Shown here piece after piece: positions 1,801 through 11,784 of a stretch of 19,751 nt of DNA (within the stretch, counting starts at the first letter, position 1; each line of letters opens with the position of its first letter). Location of the stretch: assembly GCA_052326245.1 (NCBI GenBank), contig JBKQQE010000313.1:1-19751 (forward strand). The letters are read 5' to 3'. This DNA is from Xanthobacteraceae bacterium. GTDB lineage: Bacteria > Pseudomonadota > Alphaproteobacteria > Rhizobiales > Xanthobacteraceae. Below the pieces are notes generated by a model that had not been told where the DNA came from, did not search any database, and saw only the letters and a program-made list of their open reading frames with translations. A program made the position numbers and the translations under genes.

Positions 1801-2739
1801 CTACGACAATCCGACCAGGCGGGCGAAGCGATTCCAGGCCGGCTGCTTTTCGACGGCCGTGGGCGCCATGGTGATCAGGATGAAGTGATTGATCAGCTCG
1901 ATGGTGACGGAGACGCGGCCACCGGCGGCGTCCTGGTACGCGATCATGGTGCCCTGGTCCTGCGGCACCGAACTGGTGGCGTTCCAGCGAAGGTCGGCGG
2001 CGATGTAGCGGATCATCTCGCCGACGGTATGAGGTTGTCCCTTGTCTTCGGGAAACTGCAGGATCTCGCGCGCCCGCATGTTCATGGTGAGAATGCGGGC
2101 GTCGTCGGTCTTGCTGCGCCCGTCCATGATCGGCACCGCGGCAACAATTCCCACCGGCGAGCGATCGTACAGGATGCGCAGCATGTCCACCTTTTCGTTC
2201 AAGGCGTTCATGTAGCACAGCGTATAGGTGGGCGCGCCCGTCCCGTCAGCGGTGAGGGGAAGGATCATCGTCTCCCAATAGGCGTCACGGTTCGACAGCG
2301 ACGAGATATAACGCGCGTAGATCGGCTGATTCAGCGCGATGCACTCGTCGAAGAGTTCCCTGAGGCTGTTGGCCGTGGCGAACTTGCGCTCGGATGACAG
2401 CGATCCGCGCAGATCGTGGCCGAGCTGCGCGATGTGGGCGTCGCTCTGCGCAACCACCAGATAATCGCCGCCCAGTTTCTGGCTGAGAAGCGTCTGATCG
2501 AAACTTTGCGGTTCCTGATACATGTCGCGAACGCGCGGGTTTCTGCTGGCCCTGTGGAACAGCCATTGTCGATAGGCGCGGTCGAGCGATTTCGAATGAA
2601 TGTGTTCCTCGATCGCCTTGCCCTTCCAGGCCTGGATCGCGGCGCGCCGGTCGGCGCCGTTGTCGGCCGATCTCTCCTGGGGCGGCGTAATGACCCTCGG
2701 CGCGGGCGCTGCGGCCGCTCCCCGTGTCATCCCGCTCAT
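1801..2739 (-). CDS. Hypothetical protein, possibly with tandem PAS-like folds and no recognisable output domain
   Basis: 312-aa ORF with a non-repetitive, coding-like composition. Segments such as ILTMNMRAREILQFPEDKGQPHTVGEMIRYI...VSVTIELINHFILITMAP resemble PAS-type sensor folds by eye only. The start could be Met1 (2739) or Met4 (2730). Confidence 0.55.
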   Translation of the reverse strand: MSGMTRGAAAAPAPRVITPPQERSADNGADRRAAIQAWKGKAIEEHIHSKSLDRAYRQWLFHRASRNPRVRDMYQEPQSFDQTLLSQKLGGDYLVVAQSDAHIAQLGHDLRGSLSSERKFATANSLRELFDECIALNQPIYARYISSLSNRDAYWETMILPLTADGTGAPTYTLCYMNALNEKVDMLRILYDRSPVGIVAAVPIMDGRSKTDDARILTMNMRAREILQFPEDKGQPHTVGEMIRYIAADLRWNATSSVPQDQGTMIAYQDAAGGRVSVTIELINHFILITMAPTAVEKQPAWNRFARLVGLS

Positions 2740-2919: not shown

Positions 2920-3702
2920 CTATTCCGTCGGTCGTGTGCGACGCGGCCCGCGTTGCGGCGGCGCGTGCCGGAGCCTTGCATCGAGCAGCCTGAGCGCGAG
3001 GTCCGCGATCGACGGCTCGTCGACAGCGGTGAAGTCGTAGAGCGCGGGGTCGAAGTCCTCGTACAGGTATTGATGCCGGTAGATCGGCAATGCGCCACCC
3101 GCGATCGTTTCATAGTGTTGCAGCTTGCGCGCCCGTTGCTCCCTGCTGCGGACGATCCAGTCGAAATGATAGATGCAGCAGTCGTCGGGGGCGTGGTGGA
3201 CGTCGGTGCTCTCGCCGAGGATGCCGGGCGAGTGCAGCAGGGGGTTGAATCTCGCGGTCGCCACGACGAATCCCCGGTACTGGCGGTCTCCCGGATGGAG
3301 CTGGGGCATCGTGCCGGCGAACATGGGCGTTCCATCGCGGATCGCGACGGCGCGGCGCGGTACCGCGATCACGGTCCTGGACGTGGTGGCGGCGATCTCG
3401 GTCAGCCAGGGGATCAGTCTGGCCGACGGGAATTCGTCGTCGTCCAGCCGGAACAGCCATTTGGTTTCGACCATCCTGGCGATTTCGGGAAGGATGGCCT
3501 CGACGAAATCGGGCCTTTTCGCCACTTTCAGAATCGTAGCGGAGTCGATGCTGGCCAGCGCTTCTGTGCGGTATCGGCGCGTCGAGCGGCTGTCGATCAA
3601 GTAGAGCGGCCTGAGGCCGCGTTGCCGGTATTCATCGGCCAGGACGAACGCGTAGGGCGCCCCGTCGCGGGACGGCACGACCATTGAAAGCTGCTCAGGC
3701 AT
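2920..3702 (-). CDS. Putative GT-A-fold glycosyltransferase-like protein with a DxD-type motif
   Basis: 260-aa ORF. It has an N-terminal beta-strand-like MVVPSRDG and an acidic motif, WLFRLDDDEFP, typical of DxD glycosyltransferases. The family assignment is by eye and not verified. It is on the same strand as the CuMMO cluster and 120 bp downstream of it. Confidence 0.45.
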   Translation of the reverse strand: MPEQLSMVVPSRDGAPYAFVLADEYRQRGLRPLYLIDSRSTRRYRTEALASIDSATILKVAKRPDFVEAILPEIARMVETKWLFRLDDDEFPSARLIPWLTEIAATTSRTVIAVPRRAVAIRDGTPMFAGTMPQLHPGDRQYRGFVVATARFNPLLHSPGILGESTDVHHAPDDCCIYHFDWIVRSREQRARKLQHYETIAGGALPIYRHQYLYEDFDPALYDFTAVDEPSIADLALRLLDARLRHAPPQRGPRRTRPTE

Positions 3703-3822
3703 GCAGGACCGACCTTCACTCCGACGGCTATTCTTGATCGGAGCGACTTGCCGAGGTCAAGCTGCTCGGCGTCGGTGCCGCCGATACGCGAACGGCCGCA
3801 ACACCGTCGCCACCCGCGGGGG

Positions 3823-4404
3823 TCACGTCGCCGCCGCTGCCTTCGCGGCACGGCGCCCGCGCCACCGCCAAAAGCCGTAGATGACACCGAAGCCGACGGC
3901 GAGGAATGCGGCCAGAGATGAATACCGAAGATAGAATGGCACTCCGACCGAGAACGGAAACCGTCCGACCGCCTGTTGAACGCCGTCGCCGACGGTAATC
4001 AGTCCGACGTATCTGCCCGGCTGCTGGAACTGATAGTCGAACGAGAAGGTGCCCTTCGGGTAGATCTTCGGCGGAACTTGATAGACCGTTGCGCTGTCGG
4101 GATCGCTCCCGCCGCCATCGTCCAGGACGATCCTGACCGCGACCGGAAGATCGCGCAGCGCATCGTCGATGAAATCCAGGATGACGATGGTCTGCCCCGT
4201 CGCCGGGATGTCCTCGCAGAACTCCTTCCTGTAGCCGTCTCCGGGCTGGTAGCCGGTGAAGTGCATGACATACGGACCGACGCGGAGCTTGCAGTAGTCC
4301 TTTTCCATGGCAAGCCCGCCATGCGCGCTCGCCTCGCCGGCGGCGAACAGGGCGGCCAACAGCCACAGCAATCCAGCCGTGTAGCGCGTGACGTGAAGGT
4401 TCAT
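3823..4404 (-). CDS. Exported protein with a C-terminal membrane anchor, in the pmoD/amoD position; putative copper protein
   Basis: From ORF 3823..4416. The start is placed at ATG 4404 because GGAG ends 7 nt upstream (tatGGAGcgcgcgATG). Signal peptide: MNLHVTRYTAGLLWLLAALFAAGEASA, with predicted cleavage ASA|HGG, which makes His the first mature residue. It has a C-terminal TM helix (LAAFLAVGFGVIYGFW) followed by a basic tail, RWRGRRAAK. A Cys...Met-His cluster (DYCKLRVGPYVMH) sits near the mature N-terminus. The gene begins 28 nt after the PmoB-like stop. Confidence 0.7.
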   Translation of the reverse strand: MNLHVTRYTAGLLWLLAALFAAGEASAHGGLAMEKDYCKLRVGPYVMHFTGYQPGDGYRKEFCEDIPATGQTIVILDFIDDALRDLPVAVRIVLDDGGGSDPDSATVYQVPPKIYPKGTFSFDYQFQQPGRYVGLITVGDGVQQAVGRFPFSVGVPFYLRYSSLAAFLAVGFGVIYGFWRWRGRRAAKAAAAT

Positions 4405-4431
4405 CGCGCGCTCCATATCATTGCGCTGCCG

Positions 4432-5595
4432 TCAGCGAACGAAAGTCGGAACGATGGTTCCGTACACGTTGGCGAGATGCCGCCCGCCGTCGCTGTCGTA
4501 GAAAAACAACAGCCCGCCAAAGCTGCTGTCCGGATCGCGCATCAGGCTGGTCAGGCGCTCGGCCTCCCAGGCCACGTCCGCGGCGGCGAAGTTGATGGTC
4601 CGGGTCTCACCGGGCTGCAGCGGCGTATTGACGTCGACCTGCAGGCCGGTCTTCGGCAGCAGGTCCTTCGGATAGCCCGGGTCGACATTGGCGACGGCGG
4701 CGGGAACCGAATGCTCGATAAAGCGCAAACTGGCGCTGGTGAATTCCCCAAGCTGCAGCGACTTGTTGAATTTGTTGGTGACCTGGATGGTGATCCGCAT
4801 GGCCCGTCCCGGCACGTCGTAGTTGGCCTTGGTCACCTTGAGGTCGACCACCTGCGGCGGGGTCGGCAGCGGCTCGACCCGCACCCGTCCGCCCTGCAGC
4901 GGGATGGTGTTCGGATATCGGTTCTCGGCCCACAGGAAACCGCCGCTGACAAGCACGATGATGCCGGCCAGCCCTGCCGCGGCAACGATCTGGTCCTGGC
5001 GCGTGATCAGCCCGGCCTCGTTGCCCGCCTTCAGCGCCATGTAGCGCGGCAGCAGCAGCGGCCGCCTGATCCACCACAGCAACCACAGCACCGCGATGAC
5101 AAACCACAGCGCGTGCCAGCTGAACACCGTGCCGAGGCCCCAATCCTCAAGGTTGGCGATATAGGTCCCGTCGATCGTCGTCACCGGCTGCCGGAAATCG
5201 GCGAAATTTCCGGTCACGTCGATCCATTCGCCGGGACCCGGCAGCGGACCGGCCTGATGGATATTGAGCATCGGATGGATGTGCCAGTGGCCGGGAATGC
5301 GGCCCTTGACCACGATCTTGAACTCATAGTCGCGGCCGAGCTGCAGGCCGGTCGACTGGATCGCCGGCACGCCGTCGATATAAGACTCGATGCGGGTCAT
5401 CGCGCCGCCGGGCGAGGCAAGCCCCAGGAAAACCGTGTCGGGCTTGGGCAGGATCTCCGGCCAGTCCTCGAAGATGCGGAATTTGCCGGTGATGGTGATC
5501 TCGTCGTTCACCGCCGCCTTGGTGCCGGAAAACTTCACGTCGTACCAGTGCACGGTGCGCATGCGAAGGAACGGCTCCTGGTTGCGCTCGCCGTG
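4432..5595 (-). other. PmoB/AmoB-like mature region of the fusion ORF (residues 302-688)
   Basis: His302, His406 and His408 have exactly the spacing (+104, +106) of His33/His137/His139 in M. capsulatus PmoB as I recall it. His317 corresponds to His48. The position of His72 is Arg341. Confidence 0.85.
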
Positions 5596-6498
5596 GGCCT
5601 GCGTGGGCATGCTGTACAGAATGCTGGTCAGCAACACCGCCAGCCCGAGCACGACCGTTGCCGGTCGCACCACGGCGCCTTTCGCGGCTGGCGCCGATGC
5701 GCCAGCCGATGCGGGCTTGTCCGACAGCCCCATCCATTTGCCGAGCTTGCTCGGCAGGAACGTGGTGCCGGCCAGCAGCTTGCCGATATGCCACCAAAGA
5801 AAGTACATCAGGATGCACATGAACCCCGAGAAGAAGGCGGACACCACCGCGGAATGGCCGCCGAAGGTGCGCAGCGTGCCGCGCTCGATGATGCGCAGAT
5901 ATTCCGGCATGCTGCTGCGCGGATACACGTAGCCGATCATGTCGCCGACCGTGAGCAGCGACCCGATATGCTCGAGCGGCAACCGGTACGCGGCGATCAT
6001 CGGCCAGTTTCCAGGATAGAACAGCAACGCGAACAGCATGCCGCCGAAAATGCCCGCGAAGATGAAATTGCCGCCGAGCAGCAGCACCAGGTCGAGCGCG
6101 ATGGCGCCGGGCAGCATGGTCCCCGGAAAGATCAGCGTGAAGGGAAACCAGGCCCAGATATGGAAGCCGTGCACGCGAACGATCCATTCGCCCAGCAGCA
6201 GCCCGACGCAGCAGAGCGTGGCGCCGATCGGCAGGCGGAAATAGGTCCAGAGAACGTAGTGAACGGCCGCGGGAAAGGTGATCAGCAGCACCGGGGTGAA
6301 GGTCGGCCAGAATTCCCGGTCCTTCCAGTCGTTCCAGAAATCCCAGTCGCCGATCGTCAGTTCGACATGGATGTGGAACGCCGCCGTCAGCACGATGAAG
6401 ATCGCAGCGGCGACCAGAAAATCGAAGGTCCGCGATACCCGCGCGGCCTTGCCTGCCGGCCACACGCCACGCCACGCCGTCTCCGTGATATTTGCCAC
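4432..6498 (-). CDS. pmoA-pmoB: Copper membrane monooxygenase PmoA-like / PmoB-like fusion protein (single 688-aa ORF)
   Basis: GTG start at 6498, with GGGGGGAA ending 4 nt upstream. The N-terminal ~251 aa carry PmoA/AmoA hallmarks: HIHVELTIGDWDFWNDWKDREFW, LLGEW, MLPGAIALD, FYPGNWP, ERGTLRTFGGH. Residues 302-688 carry PmoB/AmoB hallmarks: HGERNQEPFLRMRTVHWYD, GHWHIHPML, two TM helices, and a C-terminal cupredoxin-like segment, VPGRAMRITIQVTN...LGEFTSASLRF. No stop codon separates the two parts. Confidence 0.9.
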   Translation of the reverse strand: MANITETAWRGVWPAGKAARVSRTFDFLVAAAIFIVLTAAFHIHVELTIGDWDFWNDWKDREFWPTFTPVLLITFPAAVHYVLWTYFRLPIGATLCCVGLLLGEWIVRVHGFHIWAWFPFTLIFPGTMLPGAIALDLVLLLGGNFIFAGIFGGMLFALLFYPGNWPMIAAYRLPLEHIGSLLTVGDMIGYVYPRSSMPEYLRIIERGTLRTFGGHSAVVSAFFSGFMCILMYFLWWHIGKLLAGTTFLPSKLGKWMGLSDKPASAGASAPAAKGAVVRPATVVLGLAVLLTSILYSMPTQAHGERNQEPFLRMRTVHWYDVKFSGTKAAVNDEITITGKFRIFEDWPEILPKPDTVFLGLASPGGAMTRIESYIDGVPAIQSTGLQLGRDYEFKIVVKGRIPGHWHIHPMLNIHQAGPLPGPGEWIDVTGNFADFRQPVTTIDGTYIANLEDWGLGTVFSWHALWFVIAVLWLLWWIRRPLLLPRYMALKAGNEAGLITRQDQIVAAAGLAGIIVLVSGGFLWAENRYPNTIPLQGGRVRVEPLPTPPQVVDLKVTKANYDVPGRAMRITIQVTNKFNKSLQLGEFTSASLRFIEHSVPAAVANVDPGYPKDLLPKTGLQVDVNTPLQPGETRTINFAAADVAWEAERLTSLMRDPDSSFGGLLFFYDSDGGRHLANVYGTIVPTFVR
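5596..5745 (-). other. Fusion junction: basic/Ala-rich linker plus the retained PmoB-type signal-peptide-like hydrophobic segment
   Basis: Residues 252-301 read LGKWMGLSDKPASAGASAPAAKGAVVRPATVVLGLAVLLTSILYSMPTQA and are followed immediately by His302. An in-frame ATG at 5731-5733 (Met256) lacks an obvious SD. The junction T-Q-A|H resembles a signal peptidase I site. Confidence 0.7.
5746..6498 (-). other. PmoA/AmoA-like domain of the fusion ORF (residues 1 to about 251)
   Basis: Aligns by eye along its whole length with my recollection of M. capsulatus PmoA. That includes the C-terminal region (HIGKLLAGTTFLPSK here versus FIGRWFSNERFLQST). Confidence 0.8.
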
Positions 6499-6662
6499 GT
6501 TGTTCCCCCCGGGTCAGCCGCGGTTATTGGTTGTTGCGGCGTCTTGTTATTGCAGCTTCTTGTTGCAGCTTCGCAGTTCCCTGCAGCCGATACCGACCGG
6601 GCCGGAGATTGACGGACGCAATTATGACGTCCGGAATACTCCGGCCGCGGTCGCAGCGGTTG

Positions 6663-7490
6663 TCAGATCGTATCGGCCAGGTGCTCGGTTTCTTCCGTGC
6701 CGTAGATCTTCTTCAACAGCTCGACGATGTTCGGCGATACCTGCATCAGCAGGCCGCCCAGCGCCAGCGCCGACCAGCCGAGCACGACAAAGCCCCAATG
6801 CAGCGGGGCGATGAACAGCTCTTCCATCAGCCAGAAGGCATGTCCCCACTCGTTGAAACCGAGATTCGGCAGAATCAGGAACGGTCCGGTCACGCCGATG
6901 ACGAACGGGACGGAGATCGCTCGGGCAAACTGCGGCAGCCGCGTCGAGGCGTACAGATACGAGCCGACCCCGAGGATGATGTAGAGCGGGATGGTCAGGT
7001 AGAACAGCACGATGTGGCTGGGCGTGAAGCTGGTGTCGCGCACCACCACCTGGTGCCAGGACGCGTCCTCTTCGCCGAAGAAGCTGGCGGTGAAGTAGAC
7101 GGCGAACACGTAGCAGAGGATCCATGCGACCAGGGTGAAGTAGCGCTTGAGTTCGGTCCTGGGCTCGATCAGGTCGAGGTGCCGGTCGCGGGTGAGCCAG
7201 AGATACGACCAGACCACGGCCGCGGCGACCGCGAGAACGGTCAGTTCGGTGTACAGCAGCGTCATCCAGTACTTGTCGAACAGTGGATTTGTGGAGTCCA
7301 TGCCCGCGGACCAGGCGAACGCCTGCTGATAGAGCCTGGCGGCCAAGTAGATCATCGCCAAGCCGCCCATCACCATGAGCGTGATGCCGAGGTTCAGATA
7401 CTTTTCCTTGGCCTTGTCCTTGGCCGCATCCCTGGTGGCGCGGTCGGTCGACACAACACCACTCGCTCCCACGTCCAACGCCTGTGTCAT
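6663..7490 (-). CDS. pmoC: Copper membrane monooxygenase subunit C (PmoC/AmoC-like)
   Basis: 275-aa ORF with ATG at 7490 and GGGAGGG 8 nt upstream. Hallmark motifs are EEDASWHQVVVRDTSFTPSHIVLFY (D142/H146/H159) and NEWGHAFWLMEELFIAPLHWGF (N213/H217/H231). There are multiple TM helices. Confidence 0.92.
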   Translation of the reverse strand: MTQALDVGASGVVSTDRATRDAAKDKAKEKYLNLGITLMVMGGLAMIYLAARLYQQAFAWSAGMDSTNPLFDKYWMTLLYTELTVLAVAAAVVWSYLWLTRDRHLDLIEPRTELKRYFTLVAWILCYVFAVYFTASFFGEEDASWHQVVVRDTSFTPSHIVLFYLTIPLYIILGVGSYLYASTRLPQFARAISVPFVIGVTGPFLILPNLGFNEWGHAFWLMEELFIAPLHWGFVVLGWSALALGGLLMQVSPNIVELLKKIYGTEETEHLADTI

Positions 7491-7521
7491 TCGTCATTCC
7501 CTCCCATCATTTTTATAATTC

Positions 7522-7567
7522 AGGATATGAGTCTGCGACGCTTTTGCACAAGGATAGGAGTCTGCGA
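7522..7567 (-). promoter_or_regulatory. Two copies of a 17-bp direct repeat in the pmoC leader/promoter region
   Basis: aggataTgagtctgcga (7522-7538) and aggataGgagtctgcga (7551-7567) match at 16 of 17 positions and are 29 bp apart start to start. The upstream copy overlaps the candidate -10. Confidence 0.5.
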
Positions 7568-7580
7568 ACCACGACGTCAA
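7551..7580 (-). promoter_or_regulatory. Candidate sigma70-type promoter for the pmoC-like gene
   Basis: On the minus strand: TTGACG (plus 7575-7580), an 18-nt spacer, then TATCCT (plus 7551-7556). It lies about 60-90 nt upstream of the pmoC ATG. The -10 is weak, and this rests on pattern match only. Confidence 0.25.
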
Positions 7581-7734
7581 ACGCTTTGTTGTCGGCGAGC
7601 GCAGAAACCGTCTGAACTGACTGTTTTCGTGCGCCAAGACTGCCATGACGTACGCAAAGACTGCCAGGGGATGCGAGTGACTCTTACTTACCGGAACTTC
7701 CCCGGGCCGCTCGTCGAAAAGCTTCCGCAGGAAA

Positions 7735-8223
7735 TTATTGCGGCGCATCACGCGCGACGGTGACGGTAACCTGTTGCACTGAGTCCGCCACCGTGCGGTG
7801 TTGCGCATCCGCCCAGAAGACTCGCAGCGTGTTCTTGCCGGGCTTGGCCGGCAGTTCGAACACGAACAGATAGCGGTCCTCACCGAGGCGAACGAGCTGG
7901 TCGCGGCTCGGCATCATCGAGACGTCCTGGGCTTCGATGTGAAGATGCGTGCCCGGCACTGGCGCGCCCATCGTCATCTTGCCGAGGTCGGCCGGCGTCT
8001 GGAATACGATCGCCAGGCGAGTGCCTACGGTGGCGCCGTTTTGCGGCATCAGTATTTTCAGGGGCGGCAACTGCGCCGGCGCCTCGCTGGCCATCGGCAT
8101 CGTGTCCCCGCCGGTATGCTGATGGTGCATGTGCTCCATATTGGATTGCGCGACGGCCGGCGACGCGGCGAGCACCGCCAGCACCGGGAGCATCTCGAAA
8201 AGGCAGGTCCGCTTGGCAGTCAT
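7735..8223 (-). CDS. Periplasmic His/Met-rich putative copper-binding protein, possibly DUF4399-like
   Basis: From ORF 7735..8322. The start is placed at ATG 8223 because GGGGAGG lies 6 nt upstream. The longer ORF start lies inside a repeat element. Signal peptide: MTAKRTCLFEMLPVLAVLAASPAVA. The mature N-terminus is QSNMEHMHHQHTGGDTMPM. The later motifs PQNGATV, GTHLHI, PGKNTL and ADAQH resemble the DUF4399 pattern as I recall it, but this is unverified. Confidence 0.75.
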   Translation of the reverse strand: MTAKRTCLFEMLPVLAVLAASPAVAQSNMEHMHHQHTGGDTMPMASEAPAQLPPLKILMPQNGATVGTRLAIVFQTPADLGKMTMGAPVPGTHLHIEAQDVSMMPSRDQLVRLGEDRYLFVFELPAKPGKNTLRVFWADAQHRTVADSVQQVTVTVARDAPQ

Positions 8224-8255
8224 CAACGCCTCCCCTTGTTTATTGTGATTCACGG

Positions 8256-8330
8256 CTAGTGGAGTGGATTTGACATTCGCTTTGAGAGCCCGCGGCGATG
8301 CTGAATCGAAAGTCAAATCCACTCCACTAG
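8256..8330. repeat. 75-bp CTAG-bounded palindromic intergenic element, copy 1 (REP/MITE-like)
   Basis: CTAGTGGAGTGGATTTGAC (8256-8274) is the exact reverse complement of GTCAAATCCACTCCACTAG (8312-8330). About 62 of 75 positions are identical to copy 2. Confidence 0.8.
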
Positions 8331-8372
8331 TGTTCCGCTTCTAACATTCGCATCACTTTGCGGCACAAGAGT

Positions 8373-8447
8373 CTAGTGTTTTGAATTTGACATTCGCTTG
8401 GAGAGTTCGCGGCAATACTGAAGCGAATGTCAAATCCACCACACTAG
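8373..8447. repeat. 75-bp CTAG-bounded palindromic intergenic element, copy 2 (REP/MITE-like)
   Basis: CTAGTGTTTTGAATTTGACATTCGCTT pairs with AAGCGAATGTCAAATCCACCACACTAG, with a few mismatches in the outer arm. It has the same length and the same core (ATTTGACATTCGCTT...GAGAG...CGCGGC...CTGAA...GTCAAATCCAC) as copy 1. Its right end overlaps the last codons and the TAG stop (8444-8446) of the copD-fusion gene. Confidence 0.8.
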
Positions 8448-10447
8448 TGGACGTGATTGTCCGGCGCCGGCAATATTTGCGGCTCCGCGTTGAGTTTGTC
8501 CACCTGCTGGAGGAGCCGGTCCGTCGGACTCCAGCCGTTGGGCTCATCGTCGGCAATCCAGCGACCGCGAATGTAGCCGAACCGATCGATCAGGAATTCC
8601 ATGTGGCTTCTCTTCATGCCCAGGCTGCGACCATCGCCACGGTTGACCAGCGTGCGCGACAACAGTCCGTAGCTCTCCCGGATCTCGTCGGCGGCGCCGC
8701 GAACGATCGTCGCGGAGCCGCTCACGCCGGCATCGAGGGCATTGGATATCACCAGGACCACCAGACCGCGGCTTCGCATCCGATCGAGGTCCCGGCTCAG
8801 TTCGCCCATGCGCGCGAGGCTGAGTTGCTGGCCAGGGTCCGGAAACACCAGCAGGACGTTGCTTCGCTCCCGAAAGTCCTTGAGCTCGCGGGCGTTGTCG
8901 TCGTCGCCGTCCAGGTAGAAGTCGGGCGCGCCCAGCCAGGGACGCTCGGAAACGACCGAGGGCGACAGCACGCGGGCCTGAAAGCCCTGGGAAAAAGCCC
9001 GCAGGAAATTGATGATGTCCCATCGGTCCTCATCGCCCAGCACATCCGCGAATCCGGGCATGCCGCTTGGCTGAATTCCGTGCCCCAGCCACCAGTACAT
9101 GTCGCCTGCCGTGTGCAGGGCGGTATGCGGTTCGCTGAGATTCGCCGGCTGCTTCGGCAGCCCCTTCGCCGCAGGCCCATCGCCAAGGCCGCCCGGGCCG
9201 TGGCACGCCGTGCATAGCTGTTCGAAATGCTTCTTTCCTTCGAAGATCGACACCGTCAGGTACGGCACCGTGGACTGGAGATACGTGTCGGGGAAGGCCG
9301 GGACCGTCAGCGACCACAACGCCACTCCCATTCCCGCCATACCTGCGGCAGCGAGCGCTGCCAGCTGTGGCGCCGCCATGCTTCGGCGGCTCCGCACCAC
9401 CCAGGCCGCGGATAGTGCCGCAACCATGGCTCCGCCGACGACCCACAGCGGCGTCGGCCATACGGGCCAGGTCGCGTCGATGGCGAAACGAAACGGCAGC
9501 CACCAATAGGGCTGTTCGTGAGCCGCGGGGTTGGTCTGGGACAATGTGGCGGCGAGGCCGAGGACGATTGTTGCCAGGCCCAGCTCCAGCGCTACCCAGC
9601 GCGCCGCGGCGGCGTATTGTTGCGGTGCGCGCGACACTGTCGTTACAGCCGGCAGGAAGACCCGGCGCATATGGTTGGCGACCAGCAGGATGCCGACCAG
9701 CACCGCGACCTTGCCACAAATCAGCAAGCCGTAGCGTGTCCCCAGCAGATCGCCCTGCGTGCTGATAAATCCGGCGCCGAGCGCCACGCCGGAGACGGCG
9801 ATCACGACCACGCAAACCGTCGCAAGCCGCGAAAAGCGATTGAGCGCCACGGCGGTGTAACAGCGGCGCGCGTCGTTGGCGAACGGGCCGACCGTCAACA
9901 CCAGCCCGATCCAGGCCGGCAAGCCGCCGATCCACGCGCTGACGGCCACCGCATGCATGACCTGGAACGGCATGAGCCAGGCTGCCAGGTCGTCGCCGGC
10001 GGCGTGGCCGGCCAGCGGTCCGGCCGCGGCGACAACGATCGCCAGGATCAGGACCAGCCCCGCGCCCGCGCGCTCCGACCGCGTCCGCTTCGCCTTGGCC
10101 AGAAGGAGCGCGGGCGCGAGCAGGATCAGCACGAGCGAGAGCTTGAGCAGCGCGACACGGCCGTACCGCGTCTGCAACGCAAAGCTCTTCAACCATTCCC
10201 CTTCATCGATCATCCGCGCCAAGGGCAGATCGACGGTCGCGGCGGTCTGAGCGATCAAGCCCGTGACGGTCGCCAGCAAGAAGACCGACACCGCCCAGGG
10301 GAAACTTCTGCTTGCGCGATCGCGCCACGCGCGCAGAACCGGATCCGCTGTCGGGCGACTCAACAGCAGGAACGCCGCGCCGCCGACCAGCCAGGCCAGC
10401 GACAGGTACCCCGCGAGGCGAGCGAGAACCGAGACCAGCTCGGTCAC
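8444..10447 (-). CDS. copD: CopD-family copper membrane protein fused to a c-type cytochrome domain and a Cys-less thioredoxin-fold (AhpC/redoxin-like) domain
   Basis: From ORF 8444..10681. The start is placed at GTG 10447, which overlaps the copC stop as GTGA. The N-terminal ~400 aa are polytopic membrane protein with CopD-like helices (LAGHAAGDD, MHAVAVSAWIGGL). A CxxCH haem motif, CTACH, lies at 9200-9214, with a downstream GMPGF as candidate Met ligand. The C-terminal ~170 aa follow the peroxiredoxin/redoxin pattern (APDFYL..D....L.DFR...VLLVF.P ... VVLVIS ... FLIDRFGYIRGRW), but they contain no cysteine where the active-site Cys would be. Confidence 0.8.
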   Translation of the reverse strand: MTELVSVLARLAGYLSLAWLVGGAAFLLLSRPTADPVLRAWRDRASRSFPWAVSVFLLATVTGLIAQTAATVDLPLARMIDEGEWLKSFALQTRYGRVALLKLSLVLILLAPALLLAKAKRTRSERAGAGLVLILAIVVAAAGPLAGHAAGDDLAAWLMPFQVMHAVAVSAWIGGLPAWIGLVLTVGPFANDARRCYTAVALNRFSRLATVCVVVIAVSGVALGAGFISTQGDLLGTRYGLLICGKVAVLVGILLVANHMRRVFLPAVTTVSRAPQQYAAAARWVALELGLATIVLGLAATLSQTNPAAHEQPYWWLPFRFAIDATWPVWPTPLWVVGGAMVAALSAAWVVRSRRSMAAPQLAALAAAGMAGMGVALWSLTVPAFPDTYLQSTVPYLTVSIFEGKKHFEQLCTACHGPGGLGDGPAAKGLPKQPANLSEPHTALHTAGDMYWWLGHGIQPSGMPGFADVLGDEDRWDIINFLRAFSQGFQARVLSPSVVSERPWLGAPDFYLDGDDDNARELKDFRERSNVLLVFPDPGQQLSLARMGELSRDLDRMRSRGLVVLVISNALDAGVSGSATIVRGAADEIRESYGLLSRTLVNRGDGRSLGMKRSHMEFLIDRFGYIRGRWIADDEPNGWSPTDRLLQQVDKLNAEPQILPAPDNHVH

Positions 10448-10815
10448 GGCGACTTGGCGTCGGTCTTGATGCTGAACTGGTAGCCGTACTCGACCACGTG
10501 TCCGTCCTGCGAGAGAACGCGGTAATGCACGGTAAAGACTCCCGAACCGATGGTCGCGATCGGCGCCTTGACGCATTTCGGGTCGCTGCCCGCCTGCAAC
10601 TTGCCCAGCACGACGGCGGTCCCGTTGGCATCTTCCAGGGTGACCGACGAAAACTTCGCCTCGACCGCCTCGTTGAAGCAAAGATCAAGCGACGGGGGAG
10701 GTTGCGTCAGTACCGCGCGACTCCCGGGCACGGACCTGACCAGCGCTGCATGCGCATGTGCCGAACCCGGCACTGCCAGCGCGATCAGGGCCATGATTGT
10801 CATTTCTCTCTGCAT
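10444..10815 (-). CDS. copC: Periplasmic copper chaperone CopC, with a Cu(II)-type site only
   Basis: From ORF 10444..10827. The start is placed at ATG 10815, and GGGAGGAG lies upstream. Signal peptide ...ALAVPGSAHA|HAALVRSVPG leaves an N-terminal His on the mature protein. The mature protein follows the CopC pattern (SLDLCFNEAV, SSVTLED, FTVHYRVLSQDGHVVEYGYQF), including the D-x-H (DGH) of the Cu(II) site. It contains no Met, so a Met-rich Cu(I) site is absent. Confidence 0.85.
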   Translation of the reverse strand: MQREMTIMALIALAVPGSAHAHAALVRSVPGSRAVLTQPPPSLDLCFNEAVEAKFSSVTLEDANGTAVVLGKLQAGSDPKCVKAPIATIGSGVFTVHYRVLSQDGHVVEYGYQFSIKTDAKSP

Positions 10816-10941
10816 GTCCTGACCCACTCCTCCCAGGTTTTTCGCCGCGTCACAGTTGGCCGCTTCGCGGCTCTTTGCGGTCTCTATTCCGAACTTGTCC
10901 GCCGGCCATTCCGCCGCTGCGGGCCATGACCGATGCCAAAC

Positions 10942-11784
10942 TCAGGGGGATCCGGCGGCTTCGAGAAACTGGATGATCCGGCTTCGCAAGGGGGGCCAGT
11001 CCTCGTGCGCCCCGGCTCCCTCGCAGTAGTCGGTCCGCCCACCGGGCGCGCACCCCGCGAACGTGACGCAGCCGTCGTCCTGTGGCAAGGGCGGCTTTGC
11101 GAGATCGCAGGCGTTGCAGCGCGCCCACCAGAGTGCGGCTTGCTTTCCCCAGCCCGGAAAATGCGTGTCCCGTTTGCCGTGCATGACCATCACCGGAATG
11201 GGCTGCGGGCATTGAAAGCCTTCGAGGTCCTTCCCGGAGAAGCCGGCGGCGCTCGGAGCGATCGCCGACACCGTCCCTTTGGTTTGCTTCAGAAGGACGA
11301 GCGCGGTCGACACTGTTCCGCCGTCGGAGTGTCCTGTCGCATAGACCCGGTCTGGATCGATGCACCACGAGCCGGCAACTTCCCCGGGTACCCGCGCAAG
11401 TCCCGTGATGGTTTGCGGCGAGAGGGGTCGGCTGCCGACATAGGCCACAATGAAGCCTCTGCGGGTCGCATCGGTGGTCAGGCGAGTCAGAGACTCGCTC
11501 TGTTCCGCGGAATGTCCCGCCGGTGCGTAGACCATGAGCAGGGGATGCGCATAGGTGGGATCGAGGTTTGCCGGTGCCCTCACATTATAGTGGAAGCCGT
11601 CGCGCGACGAGAGTCCGTTGGTGGCGCCTGCCGCGCCCGGCTTGTTGTCGCAAGAGCCTCGGCGAGCAGCTGCATACGCGAAGCTGGCGACCTGGGTCCC
11701 CTCCTGTGCTTCCGGCGATCCGGAGCATGATGCCGCCACAAGCGCGATGGCGGCGCACATCCCGATACCAACAGAGCGTGTCAC
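10942..11784 (-). CDS. Secreted lipoprotein esterase of the alpha/beta-hydrolase class (PHB-depolymerase/LpqC-like family)
   Basis: GTG start at 11784, with GAGGG 7 nt upstream. Lipobox-like ALVAAS|C. Nucleophile elbow GHSDGG. HGKRD and a C-terminal Cys-rich tail ending in HEDWP resemble COG3509-type esterases by eye. Confidence 0.7.
   Translation of the reverse strand: MTRSVGIGMCAAIALVAASCSGSPEAQEGTQVASFAYAAARRGSCDNKPGAAGATNGLSSRDGFHYNVRAPANLDPTYAHPLLMVYAPAGHSAEQSESLTRLTTDATRRGFIVAYVGSRPLSPQTITGLARVPGEVAGSWCIDPDRVYATGHSDGGTVSTALVLLKQTKGTVSAIAPSAAGFSGKDLEGFQCPQPIPVMVMHGKRDTHFPGWGKQAALWWARCNACDLAKPPLPQDDGCVTFAGCAPGGRTDYCEGAGAHEDWPPLRSRIIQFLEAAGSP

What the first reader, a model, noticed from the sequence alone, without database searches (positions are those of the whole stretch)
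3823..10815. Complete CuMMO locus embedded in a same-strand copper-acquisition gene set, in a genome that does not look like a classical methanotroph or nitrifier
Seen: seven consecutive minus-strand units run copC, copD-cytochrome c-redoxin-like, two palindromic elements, a His/Met-rich periplasmic protein, pmoC-like, pmoA-pmoB-like, and an exported anchored protein. Established: copC, copD and pmoD-type genes are frequent neighbours of pmoCAB in methanotrophs, and CuMMOs oxidise methane, ammonia or short alkanes/alkenes depending on lineage. Inference: the flanking genes (degP, LIV transporter, amidase, esterase) and the high GC content resemble a heterotrophic Bradyrhizobiaceae-type chromosome. 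No methanol dehydrogenase or hydroxylamine-oxidation genes are visible in this window, though the window is small. The physiological substrate is therefore open, and this may be an uncharacterised CuMMO clade with a dedicated copper supply line.
Basis: partly seen in the sequence, partly recalled or inferred. Interest (0 to 1): 0.8.

Follow-up and report, generated by a model that had tools for sequence, protein, structure and literature searches.

The report
Copper monooxygenase operon with fused subunits
An uncultured soil bacterium related to Bradyrhizobium carries a complete methane/ammonia-type copper monooxygenase operon with its own copper-handling genes. Unusually, two of the three enzyme subunits are encoded as one continuous protein that still contains an internal export signal, and what the enzyme oxidises is unknown.

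Summary

Refinements:
- The anchored protein is a PmoD homologue.
- The palindromes are copies of a dispersed REP/MITE-like repeat, absent from orthologous loci.
- The conserved cassette is about 8 kb (3797-11771) and also includes an esterase gene.
- The contig comes from a Xanthobacteraceae MAG.

The main new point is that pmoA and pmoB form one 688-codon ORF. The fusion is real. The exact protein occurs on 14 contigs, and at least 10 diverged sequences keep the frame. Both domains and the retained PmoB signal segment are under purifying selection (dN/dS 0.06-0.3). Only the 14-18-residue linker drifts, with 6- and 12-nt indels.

Unfused sister lineages end PmoA at exactly the fusion point (KKWMGL-stop). 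All copper ligands are intact.

I infer a polyprotein cut by signal peptidase after PTQA, exposing the N-terminal His of PmoB. Cleavage is untested.

The clade shares at most 57% PmoA identity with any named organism, so the substrate remains open. PGAP's "ammonia monooxygenase" label is generic. I rate it a new variant of a known kind.

The parts
10942..11784 (-). Exported alpha/beta-hydrolase (PHB-depolymerase-family esterase, GHSDG nucleophile motif). It is the first gene of the conserved cassette.
   Evidence: NCBIfam NF050058 E=5e-10 and TIGR01840, both below cut-off. 88-90% aa identity in L001-L003. A 49-50% homologue sits between pmoD and copC in the unfused sister loci L016-L018.
10444..10815 (-). 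CopC, a periplasmic copper-binding protein. The mature N-terminus is His after ...SAHA, and a DGH motif is present with no Met-rich loop, which looks like a Cu(II)-only type.
   Evidence: PF04234 E=3e-18; NF033814 68 bits, below its 95-bit cut-off. Motifs were read from the translation. The alternative GTG start is at 10827.
8444..10447 (-). CopD membrane protein fused to a periplasmic cytochrome c domain (CTACH) and a C-terminal ~180-aa domain. That last domain is weakly AhpC/TSA (thioredoxin-fold)-like and lacks the Cys motif.
   Evidence: PF05425, PF00034 and PF13442; AhpC-TSA E=0.0037, sub-threshold. The GTG start overlaps the copC stop. The same 659-667-aa architecture occurs in L016, L019, L022 and L148.
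8373..8447 (.). REP/MITE-like palindromic element, copy 1 (CTAG...CTAG). Its first CTAG contains the copD stop codon.
   Evidence: Absent from L001-L003 at this position. The arm sequence is found in at least 120 metagenome contigs, with a ~78-nt palindromic consensus. No Rfam family.
8256..8330 (.). REP/MITE-like palindromic element, copy 2.
   Evidence: Same as copy 1.
7735..8223 (-). Periplasmic His/Met-rich protein (162 aa). It has a signal peptide, a disordered EHMHHQH...MPM tail and an Ig-like beta-sandwich with invariant H93-L-H95, M104-P105 and W137. It is a candidate copper-binding protein of an unnamed family.
   Evidence: 71 homologues, all annotated 'hypothetical', from Bradyrhizobium-like sources. 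Conservation from alignment A1. AF2 pLDDT is above 90 for residues 50-160. Foldseek finds only generic Ig-like folds, with CopC at rank 28. DUF4399 E=0.023, sub-threshold. It follows copC-copD/cytochrome c in CuMMO-free loci L019/L020.
7551..7580 (-). Sigma-70-like promoter candidate (TTGACG-18-TATCCT) in the 245-nt gap upstream of pmoC.
   Evidence: This is a consensus match only: 2 were found against 1.7 expected, so it is weak evidence.
6663..7490 (-). PmoC (275 aa) with intact CuC ligands (D-x3-H...H) and CuD ligands (N-x3-H...H).
   Evidence: PF04896 E=2e-99 and NF041641 371 bits. Ligands were read from the alignment to a solved pMMO PmoC chain, 9cl1. The SD GGGAGGG precedes the ATG.
5725..6498 (-). 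PmoA domain of the fused ORF (aa 1-258). It ends ...KWMGL, exactly where sister PmoA proteins stop.
   Evidence: PF02461 E=9e-96. Junction comparison. dN/dS 0.06-0.10. Model versus solved PmoA chains gives TM 0.9.
5671..5724 (-). Linker (aa 259-276, SDKPASAGASAPAAKGAV). It is Ala/Pro/Ser/Thr-rich and variable, and corresponds to the former stop codon plus spacer.
   Evidence: dN/dS about 0.6-0.9 (one pair 3.9), with only 6- and 12-nt indels. AF2 pLDDT is below 50 for 264-282. The cytoplasmic-type loop 235-275 has K+R=5 and D+E=1.
5596..5670 (-). Retained PmoB signal-peptide-like segment (aa 277-301, VRPATVVLGLAVLLTSILYSMPTQA) with small residues at -3/-1 (T-Q-A) before His302.
   Evidence: Hydropathy 2.07 over 276-294. 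Helix predicted at 280-293. dN/dS 0-0.30. The motif is conserved in all fused sequences.
4432..5595 (-). Mature PmoB domain (aa 302-688). It starts HGERNQEPF and carries the HWHIH motif (CuB His ligands), two TM helices and two cupredoxin-like domains.
   Evidence: PF04744 E=3e-143 and NF041640 541 bits. Model versus solved PmoB/AmoB chains gives TM 0.90-0.94, rmsd 2.1-2.8 A. dN/dS 0.06-0.19.
3823..4404 (-). PmoD homologue (193 aa) with a signal peptide, a cupredoxin-like domain and a C-terminal TM helix. Both family-wide Cys are present, and the motif is Cx8MH rather than Cx7MxH.
   Evidence: phmmer versus PDB 6CPD, E=3e-21. Motif definition from PMC6189053. A GGAG SD precedes the ATG at 4404. 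The gene is conserved after pmoB in L001-L005 and L016-L018.

Best explanation
This is a functional copper membrane monooxygenase (CuMMO) cassette of an uncultured soil Xanthobacteraceae/Bradyrhizobium-like bacterium.

Gene order on the minus strand is esterase, copC, copD-cytochrome c, His/Met-rich protein, pmoC, pmoA-pmoB, pmoD.

Shown:
- pmoA and pmoB are one open reading frame. It arose in a single lineage by loss of the pmoA stop codon, with the spacer brought into frame.
- The whole PmoB Sec signal peptide is retained internally.

Inferred mechanism:
- The chain is inserted co-translationally. PmoA ends in the cytoplasm, and a short flexible, positively charged linker follows.
- The former signal peptide crosses the membrane N-in/C-out.
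- Signal peptidase I cuts after ...PTQA. This releases mature PmoB with His302 as its N-terminal residue, which is the histidine-brace ligand of the CuB site. PmoA is left with an extra C-terminal helix.
- The fusion fixes 1:1 synthesis and co-localisation of the two subunits.

Inferred from homology and conserved linkage:
- CopC, CopD-cytochrome c, the His/Met-rich Ig-like protein and PmoD handle copper for the enzyme.

The oxidised substrate is not determined. I favour a small hydrocarbon or another small molecule used by a heterotroph, rather than obligate methanotrophy or nitrification.
For: The fusion is real:
- The ORF is 688 codons with no internal stop.
- The identical protein is on 14 contigs from several assemblies.
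- At least 10 diverged fused sequences (79-90% identity) come from Siberian, Danish and JGI samples.

It is under selection:
- dN/dS is 0.06-0.10 for PmoA, 0.06-0.19 for PmoB and 0-0.30 for the signal segment. The linker is about 0.6-0.9 and carries only 6- and 12-nt indels. dS reaches 0.9.

Origin:
- Unfused sisters end PmoA at KKWMGL-stop, followed by a 35-57-nt spacer with a strong SD.
- Fused genes read TCG (Ser) at that codon and lack a conserved SD before the internal GTG.
- All fused sequences form one clade in the NJ tree, sister to unfused P0169.

Topology:
- PmoA has both termini in the cytosol. PmoB has a cleaved N-terminal signal peptide, and its N-terminus ligates copper (PMC10504283).
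- Hydropathy and charge of residues 235-294 fit that topology.
- In the AF2 model (pTM 0.80) both halves match solved subunits (TM about 0.9). The linker is disordered and residues 280-293 are helical.

Catalytic residues:
- The PmoC CuC and CuD ligands and the PmoB H...HxH ligands are intact.

Copper module:
- Linkage is kept despite rearrangement.
- The copC-copD/cytochrome c-His/Met triad also exists without a CuMMO.
Against: - No expression, proteomic or activity data exist, and cleavage is untested.
- I could not run a trained signal-peptide predictor.
- The fused clade is shallow (at least 79% identity), so part of the motif conservation could reflect recency.
- Thr at position -3 is acceptable for signal peptidase I but is not the commonest residue.
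- CuB may not be the catalytic site, so an N-terminal His may not be essential.
- The roles of the His/Met-rich protein and the CopD C-terminal domain rest on sub-threshold or generic similarities.
- The substrate cannot be inferred. Identity to ethane/ethylene oxidisers (52-54%) is no higher than to methanotroph PmoA (50-53%).
Confidence: 0.6

Rival explanations
1. The fusion is translated but never cleaved. The former signal peptide then acts as a permanent transmembrane tether between PmoA and PmoB, and the CuB site lacks the N-terminal amine ligand or is dispensable.
For: - Cleavage at internal signal peptides of bacterial polytopic proteins is uncommon.
- AF2 models a helix at 280-293 within one chain.
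- From my own knowledge, verrucomicrobial PmoB lacks the CuB ligands, and current views place catalysis in PmoC. An N-terminal His may therefore not be required.
Against: - The A-x-A-type site (T-Q-A) and the immediately following HGE(R/K)NQEPF are invariant in all fused sequences.
- The segment is under purifying selection.
- All three CuB His residues are retained.
- From my own knowledge, the Bradyrhizobium FbcH cytochrome b-c1 polyprotein sets a precedent for such cleavage.
Confidence: 0.25
2. PmoB is also, or mainly, made separately by internal initiation at the conserved GTG (Val277/278). It would then enter the Sec pathway as a normal pre-protein, and the read-through fusion would be a minor by-product.
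For: - A GTG codon precedes RPATVV... in all fused genes.
- MVRPATVVLG... would be a plausible signal peptide.
- The window has a weak AAAGG 9-13 nt upstream.
Against: - There is no stop codon for PmoA, so every PmoA chain continues into PmoB.
- The strong SD seen in all unfused relatives (GGAGG/GAGG) is missing in L001 and L003.
- Frame-preserving indels in the linker show selection for read-through.
Confidence: 0.08
3. The enzyme is a bacterial ammonia monooxygenase, as the PGAP product names on the source MAG state, and the organism is an unrecognised nitrifier.
For: - NCBIfam AmoA_BACT, AmoB_BACT and AmoC_BACT 'equivalog' models score above their cut-offs.
- NCBI names the proteins AmoB and AmoC.
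- The model aligns to solved AMO chains as well as it does to pMMO chains.
Against: - The same PGAP names are applied to the pMMO of the methanotroph Methylomagnum ishizawai, so the label is generic.
- Identity to solved AmoA/AmoB is only 42-47%.
- No hao or cycAB-like genes lie in the window or in the flanks of L003.
- The nearest named relatives are heterotrophic Bradyrhizobium.
Confidence: 0.08
4. The single ORF is an assembly or sequencing artefact, or a decaying pseudogene.
For: - The sequence is metagenome-derived.
- Two other apparent A-B 'fusions' in the representative library are artefacts. P0393 has a garbled last PmoA helix, and P0372 lies on a contig with PmoB split into three pieces.
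Against: - 14 independent contigs carry the identical protein.
- At least 10 diverged sequences from different studies keep the frame.
- dN/dS is 0.06-0.19 across both domains.
- All metal ligands are intact.
Confidence: 0.03

Closest known systems
Extended pmoCAB-pmoD-copC-copD(-pCuAC) operons of alphaproteobacterial methanotrophs (Methylosinus trichosporium OB3b, Methylocystis sp. Rockwell), and amoCAB-amoE/D-copCD of betaproteobacterial ammonia oxidisers (Fisher et al. 2018, PMC6189053)
   Same: - CuMMO genes in C-A-B order are directly linked to pmoD, copC and copD on one strand.
- PmoD has a signal peptide, a cupredoxin-like domain, two conserved Cys and a C-terminal helix.
- All CuB, CuC and CuD ligands are present.
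   Different: - pmoA and pmoB are fused.
- The copper genes lie upstream of pmoC instead of downstream.
- CopD carries a cytochrome c domain and a thioredoxin-fold-like domain.
- There is an extra His/Met-rich Ig-like protein and an esterase.
- The PmoD motif is Cx8MH, not Cx7MxH.
- Sequence identity is 36-53% to solved pMMO/AMO subunits.
- The host is a Bradyrhizobium-like heterotroph lineage.
Unfused sister CuMMO clade in Xanthobacteraceae MAGs and soil metagenomes (loci L016, L017, L018; proteins P0169, P0003-P0008)
   Same: - The same gene set is present: pmoC, pmoA, pmoB, pmoD, esterase, copC, copD-cytochrome c.
- Identity is 81-82% for PmoA, 76-77% for PmoB and 72-82% for PmoC.
- PmoA ends with the same KKWMGL.
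   Different: - pmoA and pmoB are separate genes in different frames, with a stop codon, a 35-57-nt spacer and a strong SD.
- The order is pmoC-A-B-pmoD-esterase-copC-copD.
- There is no His/Met-rich gene.
Bradyrhizobium CuMMOs of unknown function (B. niftali-type locus L148; Bradyrhizobium sp. ERR11, mentioned in Khadka et al. 2018, PMC6215863)
   Same: - A CuMMO in a Bradyrhizobium genome with no assigned substrate.
- pmoCAB is followed by copC and a 663-aa CopD-cytochrome c protein.
   Different: - Only 55-57% identity.
- The subunits are unfused.
- The locus lies between relaxase, T4SS and IS66 genes, so it is on an ICE- or plasmid-like element. No mobility genes flank the window or L003.
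Ethane- and ethylene-oxidising gammaproteobacterial CuMMOs (Methylococcaceae ET-HIRO/ET-SHO, Haliea sp. ETY-M, Cycloclasticus symbionts)
   Same: These are proteobacterial CuMMOs outside the canonical pMMO/AMO clades, and they are the nearest relatives with an assigned substrate (52-54% PmoA identity).
   Different: - They fall in different clades of the NJ tree.
- They are no closer than methanotroph PmoA (50-53%).
- The subunits are unfused.
FbcH cytochrome b-c1 polyprotein of Bradyrhizobium japonicum (Thony-Meyer et al., from my own knowledge; not retrievable in the paper library)
   Same: What it works like: a polytopic membrane subunit is fused to the next subunit of the same complex. The second subunit's Sec-type signal peptide is kept internally and serves as the cleavage site. 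It occurs in the same bacterial family.
   Different: It is an unrelated protein family. Cleavage is experimentally shown for FbcH and only inferred here.

Membership tests
Copper membrane monooxygenase (CuMMO: pMMO/AMO/HMO superfamily) | Adjacent homologues of the C, A and B subunits in C-A-B order | tested here: met
   PF04896, PF02461 and PF04744 with E values of 1e-96 to 1e-143. The NCBIfam models score above their cut-offs.
Copper membrane monooxygenase (CuMMO: pMMO/AMO/HMO superfamily) | Metal ligands: PmoC CuC (Asp, His, His), PmoC CuD (Asn, His, His), PmoB CuB (His after the signal site plus HxH) | tested here: met
   DASWH...PSH and NEWGH...PLH in PmoC, aligned to solved chain 9cl1. 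A|HGERN and HWHIH in PmoB.
Copper membrane monooxygenase (CuMMO: pMMO/AMO/HMO superfamily) | Three separate polypeptides (alpha, beta, gamma) encoded by three genes | tested here: not met
   A and B are one 688-codon ORF in the window and in at least 10 relatives. Whether two polypeptides result after processing cannot be tested here.
Copper membrane monooxygenase (CuMMO: pMMO/AMO/HMO superfamily) | Canonical subunit folds | tested here: met
   AF2 pTM 0.80. Foldseek TM (target-normalised) is 0.90-0.94 to PmoB/AmoB chains and about 0.9 to PmoA chains.
Copper membrane monooxygenase (CuMMO: pMMO/AMO/HMO superfamily) | Copper-dependent oxidation of methane, ammonia or a short hydrocarbon | not testable with these tools
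   No culture, expression or activity data.
Particulate methane monooxygenase of methanotrophs (sensu stricto) | PmoA placed inside a methanotroph clade | tested here: not met
   The NJ tree separates it from the Methylocaldum, Methyloglobulus and Methylomonas-type PmoA sequences. Identity is 50-53%.
Particulate methane monooxygenase of methanotrophs (sensu stricto) | Methanol dehydrogenase (mxaF/xoxF) and C1 assimilation genes in the genome | not testable with these tools
   Only the 19.7-kb contig and +/-10 kb of L003 could be read. None is present there.
Bacterial ammonia monooxygenase | Membership of the AOB AmoA/B/C clades | tested here: inconclusive
   The NCBIfam Amo*_BACT 'equivalog' models are passed. 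The same names are given to Methylomagnum pMMO. Identity to solved AMO chains is 42-47%. No AOB sequences were available for my tree.
Bacterial ammonia monooxygenase | Hydroxylamine-oxidising machinery (hao, c554, cM552) in the genome | not testable with these tools
   Not seen in the window or in the flanks of L003.
PmoD/AmoD family | Sequence homology to the PmoD periplasmic domain; signal peptide; C-terminal TM helix; two invariant Cys | tested here: met
   6CPD E=3e-21 over residues 41-158. C42 and C68 align with Cys41 and Cys65. The N-terminal signal and the C-terminal segment LAAFLAVGFGVIYGFW are present.
PmoD/AmoD family | CuA-forming motif Cx7MxHxnC | tested here: not met
   The window has C-KLRVGPYV-M-H (Cx8MH). 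The His aligns but the Met is shifted by one. It belongs to another PmoD subgroup, whose copper site is unknown.
CopC / CopD copper-uptake pair | CopC domain with an N-terminal His and D-x-H Cu(II) ligands; CopD membrane domain encoded next to it | tested here: met
   PF04234 and PF05425 score above the Pfam cut-offs. The NCBIfam equivalog cut-offs are not reached: 68 of 95 bits for CopC and 95 of 195 bits for CopD. The HAAL... N-terminus and the SQDGH motif were read. The genes overlap by GTGA.
Polyproteins split at an internal Sec signal peptide (FbcH type) | The upstream polytopic domain ends in the cytoplasm. It is followed by a positively charged stretch, a hydrophobic helix and a small-x-small site before the mature downstream subunit. 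| tested here: met
   The PmoA C-terminus is cytosolic (PMC10504283). Loop 235-275 has K+R=5 and D+E=1, hydropathy is 2.07 over 276-294, and T-Q-A precedes His.
Polyproteins split at an internal Sec signal peptide (FbcH type) | Demonstrated proteolytic processing into two subunits | not testable with these tools
   Requires proteomics or immunoblotting.

The most novel reading that the evidence does not exclude
This would be the first natural copper membrane monooxygenase made as a polyprotein. PmoA and PmoB are translated as one chain and separated, or possibly left tethered, at an internal signal peptide. The trait defines a widespread, uncultured soil Xanthobacteraceae clade whose enzyme oxidises an as yet unknown substrate. 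I found no report of it in the searchable literature.
Probability: 0.5. Interest if true: 0.7.

Novelty: new variant of a known kind. Interest (0 to 1): 0.6.

Why it matters
- **Heterologous expression.** pMMO and AMO have resisted functional heterologous expression, and balanced co-insertion of the subunits is one suspected obstacle. Engineers have already tried synthetic self-cleaving CAB polypeptides (PMC10504283). A naturally selected PmoA-PmoB fusion with a built-in processing site is a ready-made design to copy.
- **The CuB site.** It is also a natural experiment on whether PmoB needs a free N-terminal histidine.
- **Ecology.** The clade occurs in permafrost, Danish and other soil metagenomes. 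Its protein cluster holds 103 member sequences. It sits in a heterotroph lineage and is far from every CuMMO with a known substrate, so it may be an unrecognised sink for a trace gas or small hydrocarbon.
- **Annotation.** Database labels such as "ammonia monooxygenase subunit B" for a 688-aa A+B fusion are misleading for nitrogen-cycle surveys.

Tried and rejected
- **Artefact or pseudogene for the single ORF.** Rejected. The identical protein is on 14 contigs, at least 10 diverged in-frame relatives exist, and dN/dS is low.
- **Independent A-B fusions elsewhere.** I searched 1.84 billion representative proteins. P0393 looks like a frameshift read-through. P0372 lies on a contig whose PmoB is split into three ORFs. 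Neither is credible, so the fusion appears confined to this clade.
- **A conserved internal SD for separate PmoB translation.** Not found.
- **Palindromes as an operon-specific regulator or known RNA.** There is no Rfam hit. They are absent from orthologous loci and belong to a dispersed repeat family.
- **Family assignment of the His/Met-rich protein.** Pfam gives only DUF4399 at E=0.023. Foldseek gives only generic Ig-like folds.
- **'Redoxin-like' C-terminal domain of CopD.** Only a sub-threshold AhpC/TSA match, and no Cys motif.
- **Mobility genes next to the cassette.** None in the window or in the flanks of L003. A B. niftali-type cassette does sit in a T4SS/relaxase/IS66 region.
- **Literature on a natural pmoA-pmoB fusion or on the FbcH precedent.** Nothing was retrieved. 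The library lacks most subscription papers, so this does not prove novelty.
- **Substrate inference from nearest characterised relatives.** Rejected as uninformative. Identity to ethane, ethylene and methane oxidisers alike is 50-54%.
- **Whole-genome inventory of the source MAG.** Not possible.

Full report
**1. Checking the observation**

- CopC lies at 10444-10815 (PF04234, E=3e-18).
- A 667-aa CopD-cytochrome c protein lies at 8444-10447 (PF05425, PF00034, heme motif CTACH). Its GTG start overlaps the copC stop.
- Two hairpin-forming palindromes follow.
- A 162-aa His/Met-rich exported protein lies at 7735-8223.
- PmoC lies at 6663-7490 (E=2e-99).
- A single 688-codon ORF at 4432-6498 holds a PmoA domain (aa 16-248, E=9e-96) and a PmoB domain (aa 303-686, E=3e-143).
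- A 193-aa exported, C-terminally anchored protein lies at 3823-4404.

G+C is 58-68% across the window.

**2. Source and relatives**

An exact-sequence look-up shows the window is essentially a whole 19.75-kb contig of a MAG labelled Xanthobacteraceae bacterium. PGAP calls the 688-aa protein 'bacterial ammonia monooxygenase, subunit AmoB'. A scan of species-representative genomes found three loci with 89-90% identical, full-length matches. Two are Chersky MAG contigs and one is a 230-kb contig of a Danish alphaproteobacterial MAG.

Nucleotide comparison shows a conserved block spanning window 3797-11771 at 84-88% identity. The sequence on either side is unrelated. The cassette is therefore about 8 kb.

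The closest unfused relatives are L016, L017 and L018, which include another Xanthobacteraceae MAG. They carry the same genes in a rotated order: pmoC-pmoA-pmoB-pmoD-esterase-copC-copD/cytochrome c. A B. niftali-type locus at 55-57% identity again has pmoCAB-x-copC-copD/cytochrome c. There it lies between relaxase, type IV secretion and IS66 genes.

Linkage of the copper genes with the monooxygenase is thus conserved through rearrangement and across clades. This is the best available evidence that they work together.

**3. The accessory proteins**

- **PmoD.** The last gene is a PmoD homologue (phmmer against PDB 6CPD, E=3e-21). It has the family's signal peptide, both invariant cysteines and a C-terminal helix. 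Its motif is Cx8MH rather than the Cx7MxH that forms the CuA site in Methylocystis PmoD (PMC6189053).
- **CopC.** After signal cleavage it has an N-terminal His and a DGH motif, with no Met-rich loop.
- **CopD C-terminal domain.** The 180-aa domain gives only a sub-threshold AhpC/TSA match (E=0.0037). 'Redoxin-like' is therefore a weak lead.
- **His/Met-rich protein.** It belongs to an unnamed family of 71 'hypothetical' proteins from Bradyrhizobium-like sources. The family has invariant H-L-H, M-P and W positions. AlphaFold2 gives a confident Ig-like beta-sandwich (pLDDT above 90 for residues 50-160) behind a disordered His/Met tail. Foldseek finds only generic Ig-like folds, with CopC at rank 28.

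In B. manausense-type contigs the triad copC-copD/cytochrome c-His/Met protein occurs without any CuMMO. It is therefore a pre-existing Bradyrhizobium copper module that sits in front of pmoC in this lineage. The His/Met gene is present in the fused clade only.

**4. The palindromes**

Each element is 75 nt and bounded by CTAG. The first CTAG contains the copD stop codon. In L001-L003 copD and the next gene are about 35 nt apart and the elements are missing. Those copies share a ~78-nt palindromic consensus. No Rfam family matches.

They are copies of a dispersed REP/MITE-like repeat and are not a dedicated part of the operon. They could still affect mRNA stability or polarity between copD and the downstream genes.

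**5. The fusion is real**

- The ORF has no internal stop in the window, L001/L002, L003 or L021.
- The identical 688-aa protein was assembled on 14 contigs from several projects.
- Its sequence cluster holds 103 members, among them full-length 683-697-aa proteins.

Every fused sequence reads ...KWMGL-S-(D/G/A/N)-(K/E)-T..., then 10-14 variable Ala/Pro/Ser/Thr-rich residues, then (V/A/L)VRPAT(V/A)(V/A)LG(L/F)AV(L/V)LTSxLYS(M/V)PTQA-HGE(R/K)NQEPFLRMR.

The unfused sisters end PmoA at exactly KKWMGL followed by TAG or TGA. Next comes a 35-57-nt spacer with a strong Shine-Dalgarno sequence, and then pmoB in another frame with an ordinary signal peptide ending A-x-A|HGE. In the fused genes the former stop position is TCG (Ser). 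The Shine-Dalgarno sequence is gone in L001 and L003.

Pairwise codon analysis of four fused genes gives:

| Region | dN/dS |
|---|---|
| PmoA | 0.06-0.10 |
| PmoB | 0.06-0.19 |
| Signal-like segment | 0-0.30 |
| Linker | about 0.6-0.9 (one pair 3.9) |

Synonymous divergence reaches 0.9, and the only indels in the linker are 6 and 12 nt. A near-neutral linker that never loses the frame is what selection for read-through predicts.

A neighbour-joining PmoA tree puts all fused sequences in one clade, sister to unfused P0169 and then P0171. That tree has no bootstrap support values. It is consistent with a single origin.

A full scan of 1.84 billion representative proteins found no other credible A-B fusion. 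P0393 has a garbled last PmoA helix, and P0372 lies on a contig with a fragmented PmoB.

**6. How it most likely works**

Published topology work and the solved structures place both PmoA termini in the cytoplasm. PmoB has both termini in the periplasm behind a cleaved signal peptide, and its new N-terminus ligates copper (PMC10504283). The fusion is therefore topologically seamless.

- The PmoA tail and linker (residues 235-275) carry five Lys/Arg and one acidic residue.
- Residues 276-294 form a hydrophobic segment with mean hydropathy 2.07.
- The motif T-Q-A precedes His302.

AlphaFold2 models the whole chain with pTM 0.80. It gives a disordered linker (pLDDT below 50 for 264-282), a helix at 280-293 and a disordered 294-307. 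The two halves superpose on solved PmoB/AmoB chains (TM 0.90-0.94) and PmoA/AmoA chains (TM about 0.9). PmoC keeps the CuC (D, H, H) and CuD (N, H, H) ligands. PmoB keeps H...HxH.

I therefore infer a polyprotein that signal peptidase I cuts after PTQA. Mature PmoB would have an N-terminal His, and PmoA would carry an extra C-terminal helix. The closest mechanistic precedent I know is the Bradyrhizobium japonicum FbcH cytochrome b-c1 polyprotein. That comparison rests on my own knowledge, because the paper library returned nothing on it. Cleavage itself is not shown. The uncleaved-tether alternative keeps about a quarter of the probability.

**7. What the enzyme oxidises**

This remains open.

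| Comparison | PmoA identity |
|---|---|
| Unfused sisters | 82-84% |
| P0171 | 67% |
| Any other sequence | at most 62% |
| B. niftali | 57% |
| Haliea ETY-M (ethylene) | 54% |
| ET-HIRO / ET-SHO (ethane) | 53 / 52% |
| Cycloclasticus | 52% |
| Methanotroph PmoA | 50-53% |
| Solved AmoA | 45-47% |
| Actinobacterial hydrocarbon monooxygenases (PmoA+PmoB) | 33-35% |

The NCBIfam 'AmoA/B/C_BACT' models are passed. PGAP gives the same names to the pMMO of the methanotroph Methylomagnum ishizawai, so the label says nothing about ammonia. No methanol, hydroxylamine or alcohol oxidation genes lie in the window or within 10 kb of the cassette in L003. The whole MAGs could not be examined.

**8. Comparison with what is known, and novelty**

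The locus works like the extended pmoCAB-pmoD-copCD operons of alphaproteobacterial methanotrophs and betaproteobacterial nitrifiers (PMC6189053). It belongs to the CuMMO superfamily by subunit homology, ligands and fold. It fails one textbook feature, three separately encoded subunits.

CuMMOs of unknown function in Bradyrhizobium have been noted before (PMC6215863). The host and context are therefore not new in kind. I found no report of a natural pmoA-pmoB fusion. The library is incomplete, so this is not proof of novelty.

I rate the locus a new variant of a known kind, with interest 0.6. The fusion is a clear, conserved and testable oddity. It bears on pMMO assembly, the CuB histidine brace and heterologous expression. 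The clade is a widespread soil CuMMO with no assigned substrate.

Noticed in passing
window 8256-8330 and 8373-8447; loci L028-L107 and others: The two palindromes belong to a dispersed ~78-nt CTAG-bounded repeat family. Its consensus is CTAGTGGAGyTTTGGATTTGACATTCGCTT-loop-AGCGAATGTCAAATCCrCTCCACTAG. It is present in at least 120 soil metagenome contigs and has no Rfam family. Here one copy is inserted exactly at the copD stop codon.
   Followed up: partly
L148 783-19323: The B. niftali-type pmoCAB-copC-copD/cytochrome c cassette lies between relaxase, T4SS coupling protein, IS66 transposase and TrbB/TrbC/VirB3/VirB4 genes. It is therefore on an ICE- or plasmid-like element, which suggests these cassettes move horizontally among Bradyrhizobium.
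   Followed up: partly
L019 and L020, 3585-6456: The triad copC-copD/cytochrome c-His/Met-rich protein occurs without any CuMMO in B. manausense-type contigs. It sits next to a PQQ-dependent dehydrogenase with a cytochrome c, and a molybdenum hydroxylase (Fer2 / Ald_Xan_dh / FAD_binding_5) set.
   Followed up: partly
L150 327-1871 (protein P0438): A 514-aa ORF fuses PmoC (aa 1-~265) to PmoA (aa ~270-514) and overlaps the next gene by 4 nt. It is in a high-G+C metagenome contig. Only one short contig carries it, so a sequencing error is not excluded.
   Followed up: partly
proteins P0431, P0457, P0466, P0389: PmoB-like C-terminal cupredoxin regions lacking the N-terminal His are attached to unrelated N-terminal parts in low-G+C organisms. 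One such part looks ankyrin-like and another caspase-like by eye. Separately, a 985-aa protein carries a C-terminal PmoA domain. Their function is unknown.
   Followed up: no
L004, L005, L015, L006 around 10700-10900: In several unfused CuMMO loci pmoA and pmoB lie in the same reading frame, separated by one or a few stop codons. In those lineages loss of the stop codon(s) alone would create a fusion.
   Followed up: partly
L001 versus L002; L013: Near-identical Chersky contigs are binned into a 'Candidatus Sulfotelmatobacter' MAG and a Bradyrhizobium MAG. A CuMMO contig is labelled 'Klebsiella pneumoniae' MAG. These look like binning or labelling errors in public records.
   Followed up: no
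window 10942-11784; L016 8103-8939; L018 3337-4197: An exported PHB-depolymerase-family esterase is conserved inside the CuMMO cassette in both the fused and the unfused sister clades (49-90% identity). Its role next to a monooxygenase is unexplained, and it might hint at the pathway.
   Followed up: partly
window 2920-3702 and 1801-2739 (minus strand): Two further same-strand ORFs downstream of pmoD (254-260 aa and 312 aa) match no Pfam or NCBIfam family. They are not conserved next to the cassette in L001-L003.
   Followed up: no
plasmid hit H1, NZ_AP019784.1 106424-108361: PGAP names the pMMO subunits of the methanotroph Methylomagnum ishizawai 'bacterial ammonia monooxygenase AmoA/AmoB'. 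The NCBIfam Amo*_BACT 'equivalog' names are therefore applied to methane monooxygenases as well.
   Followed up: no
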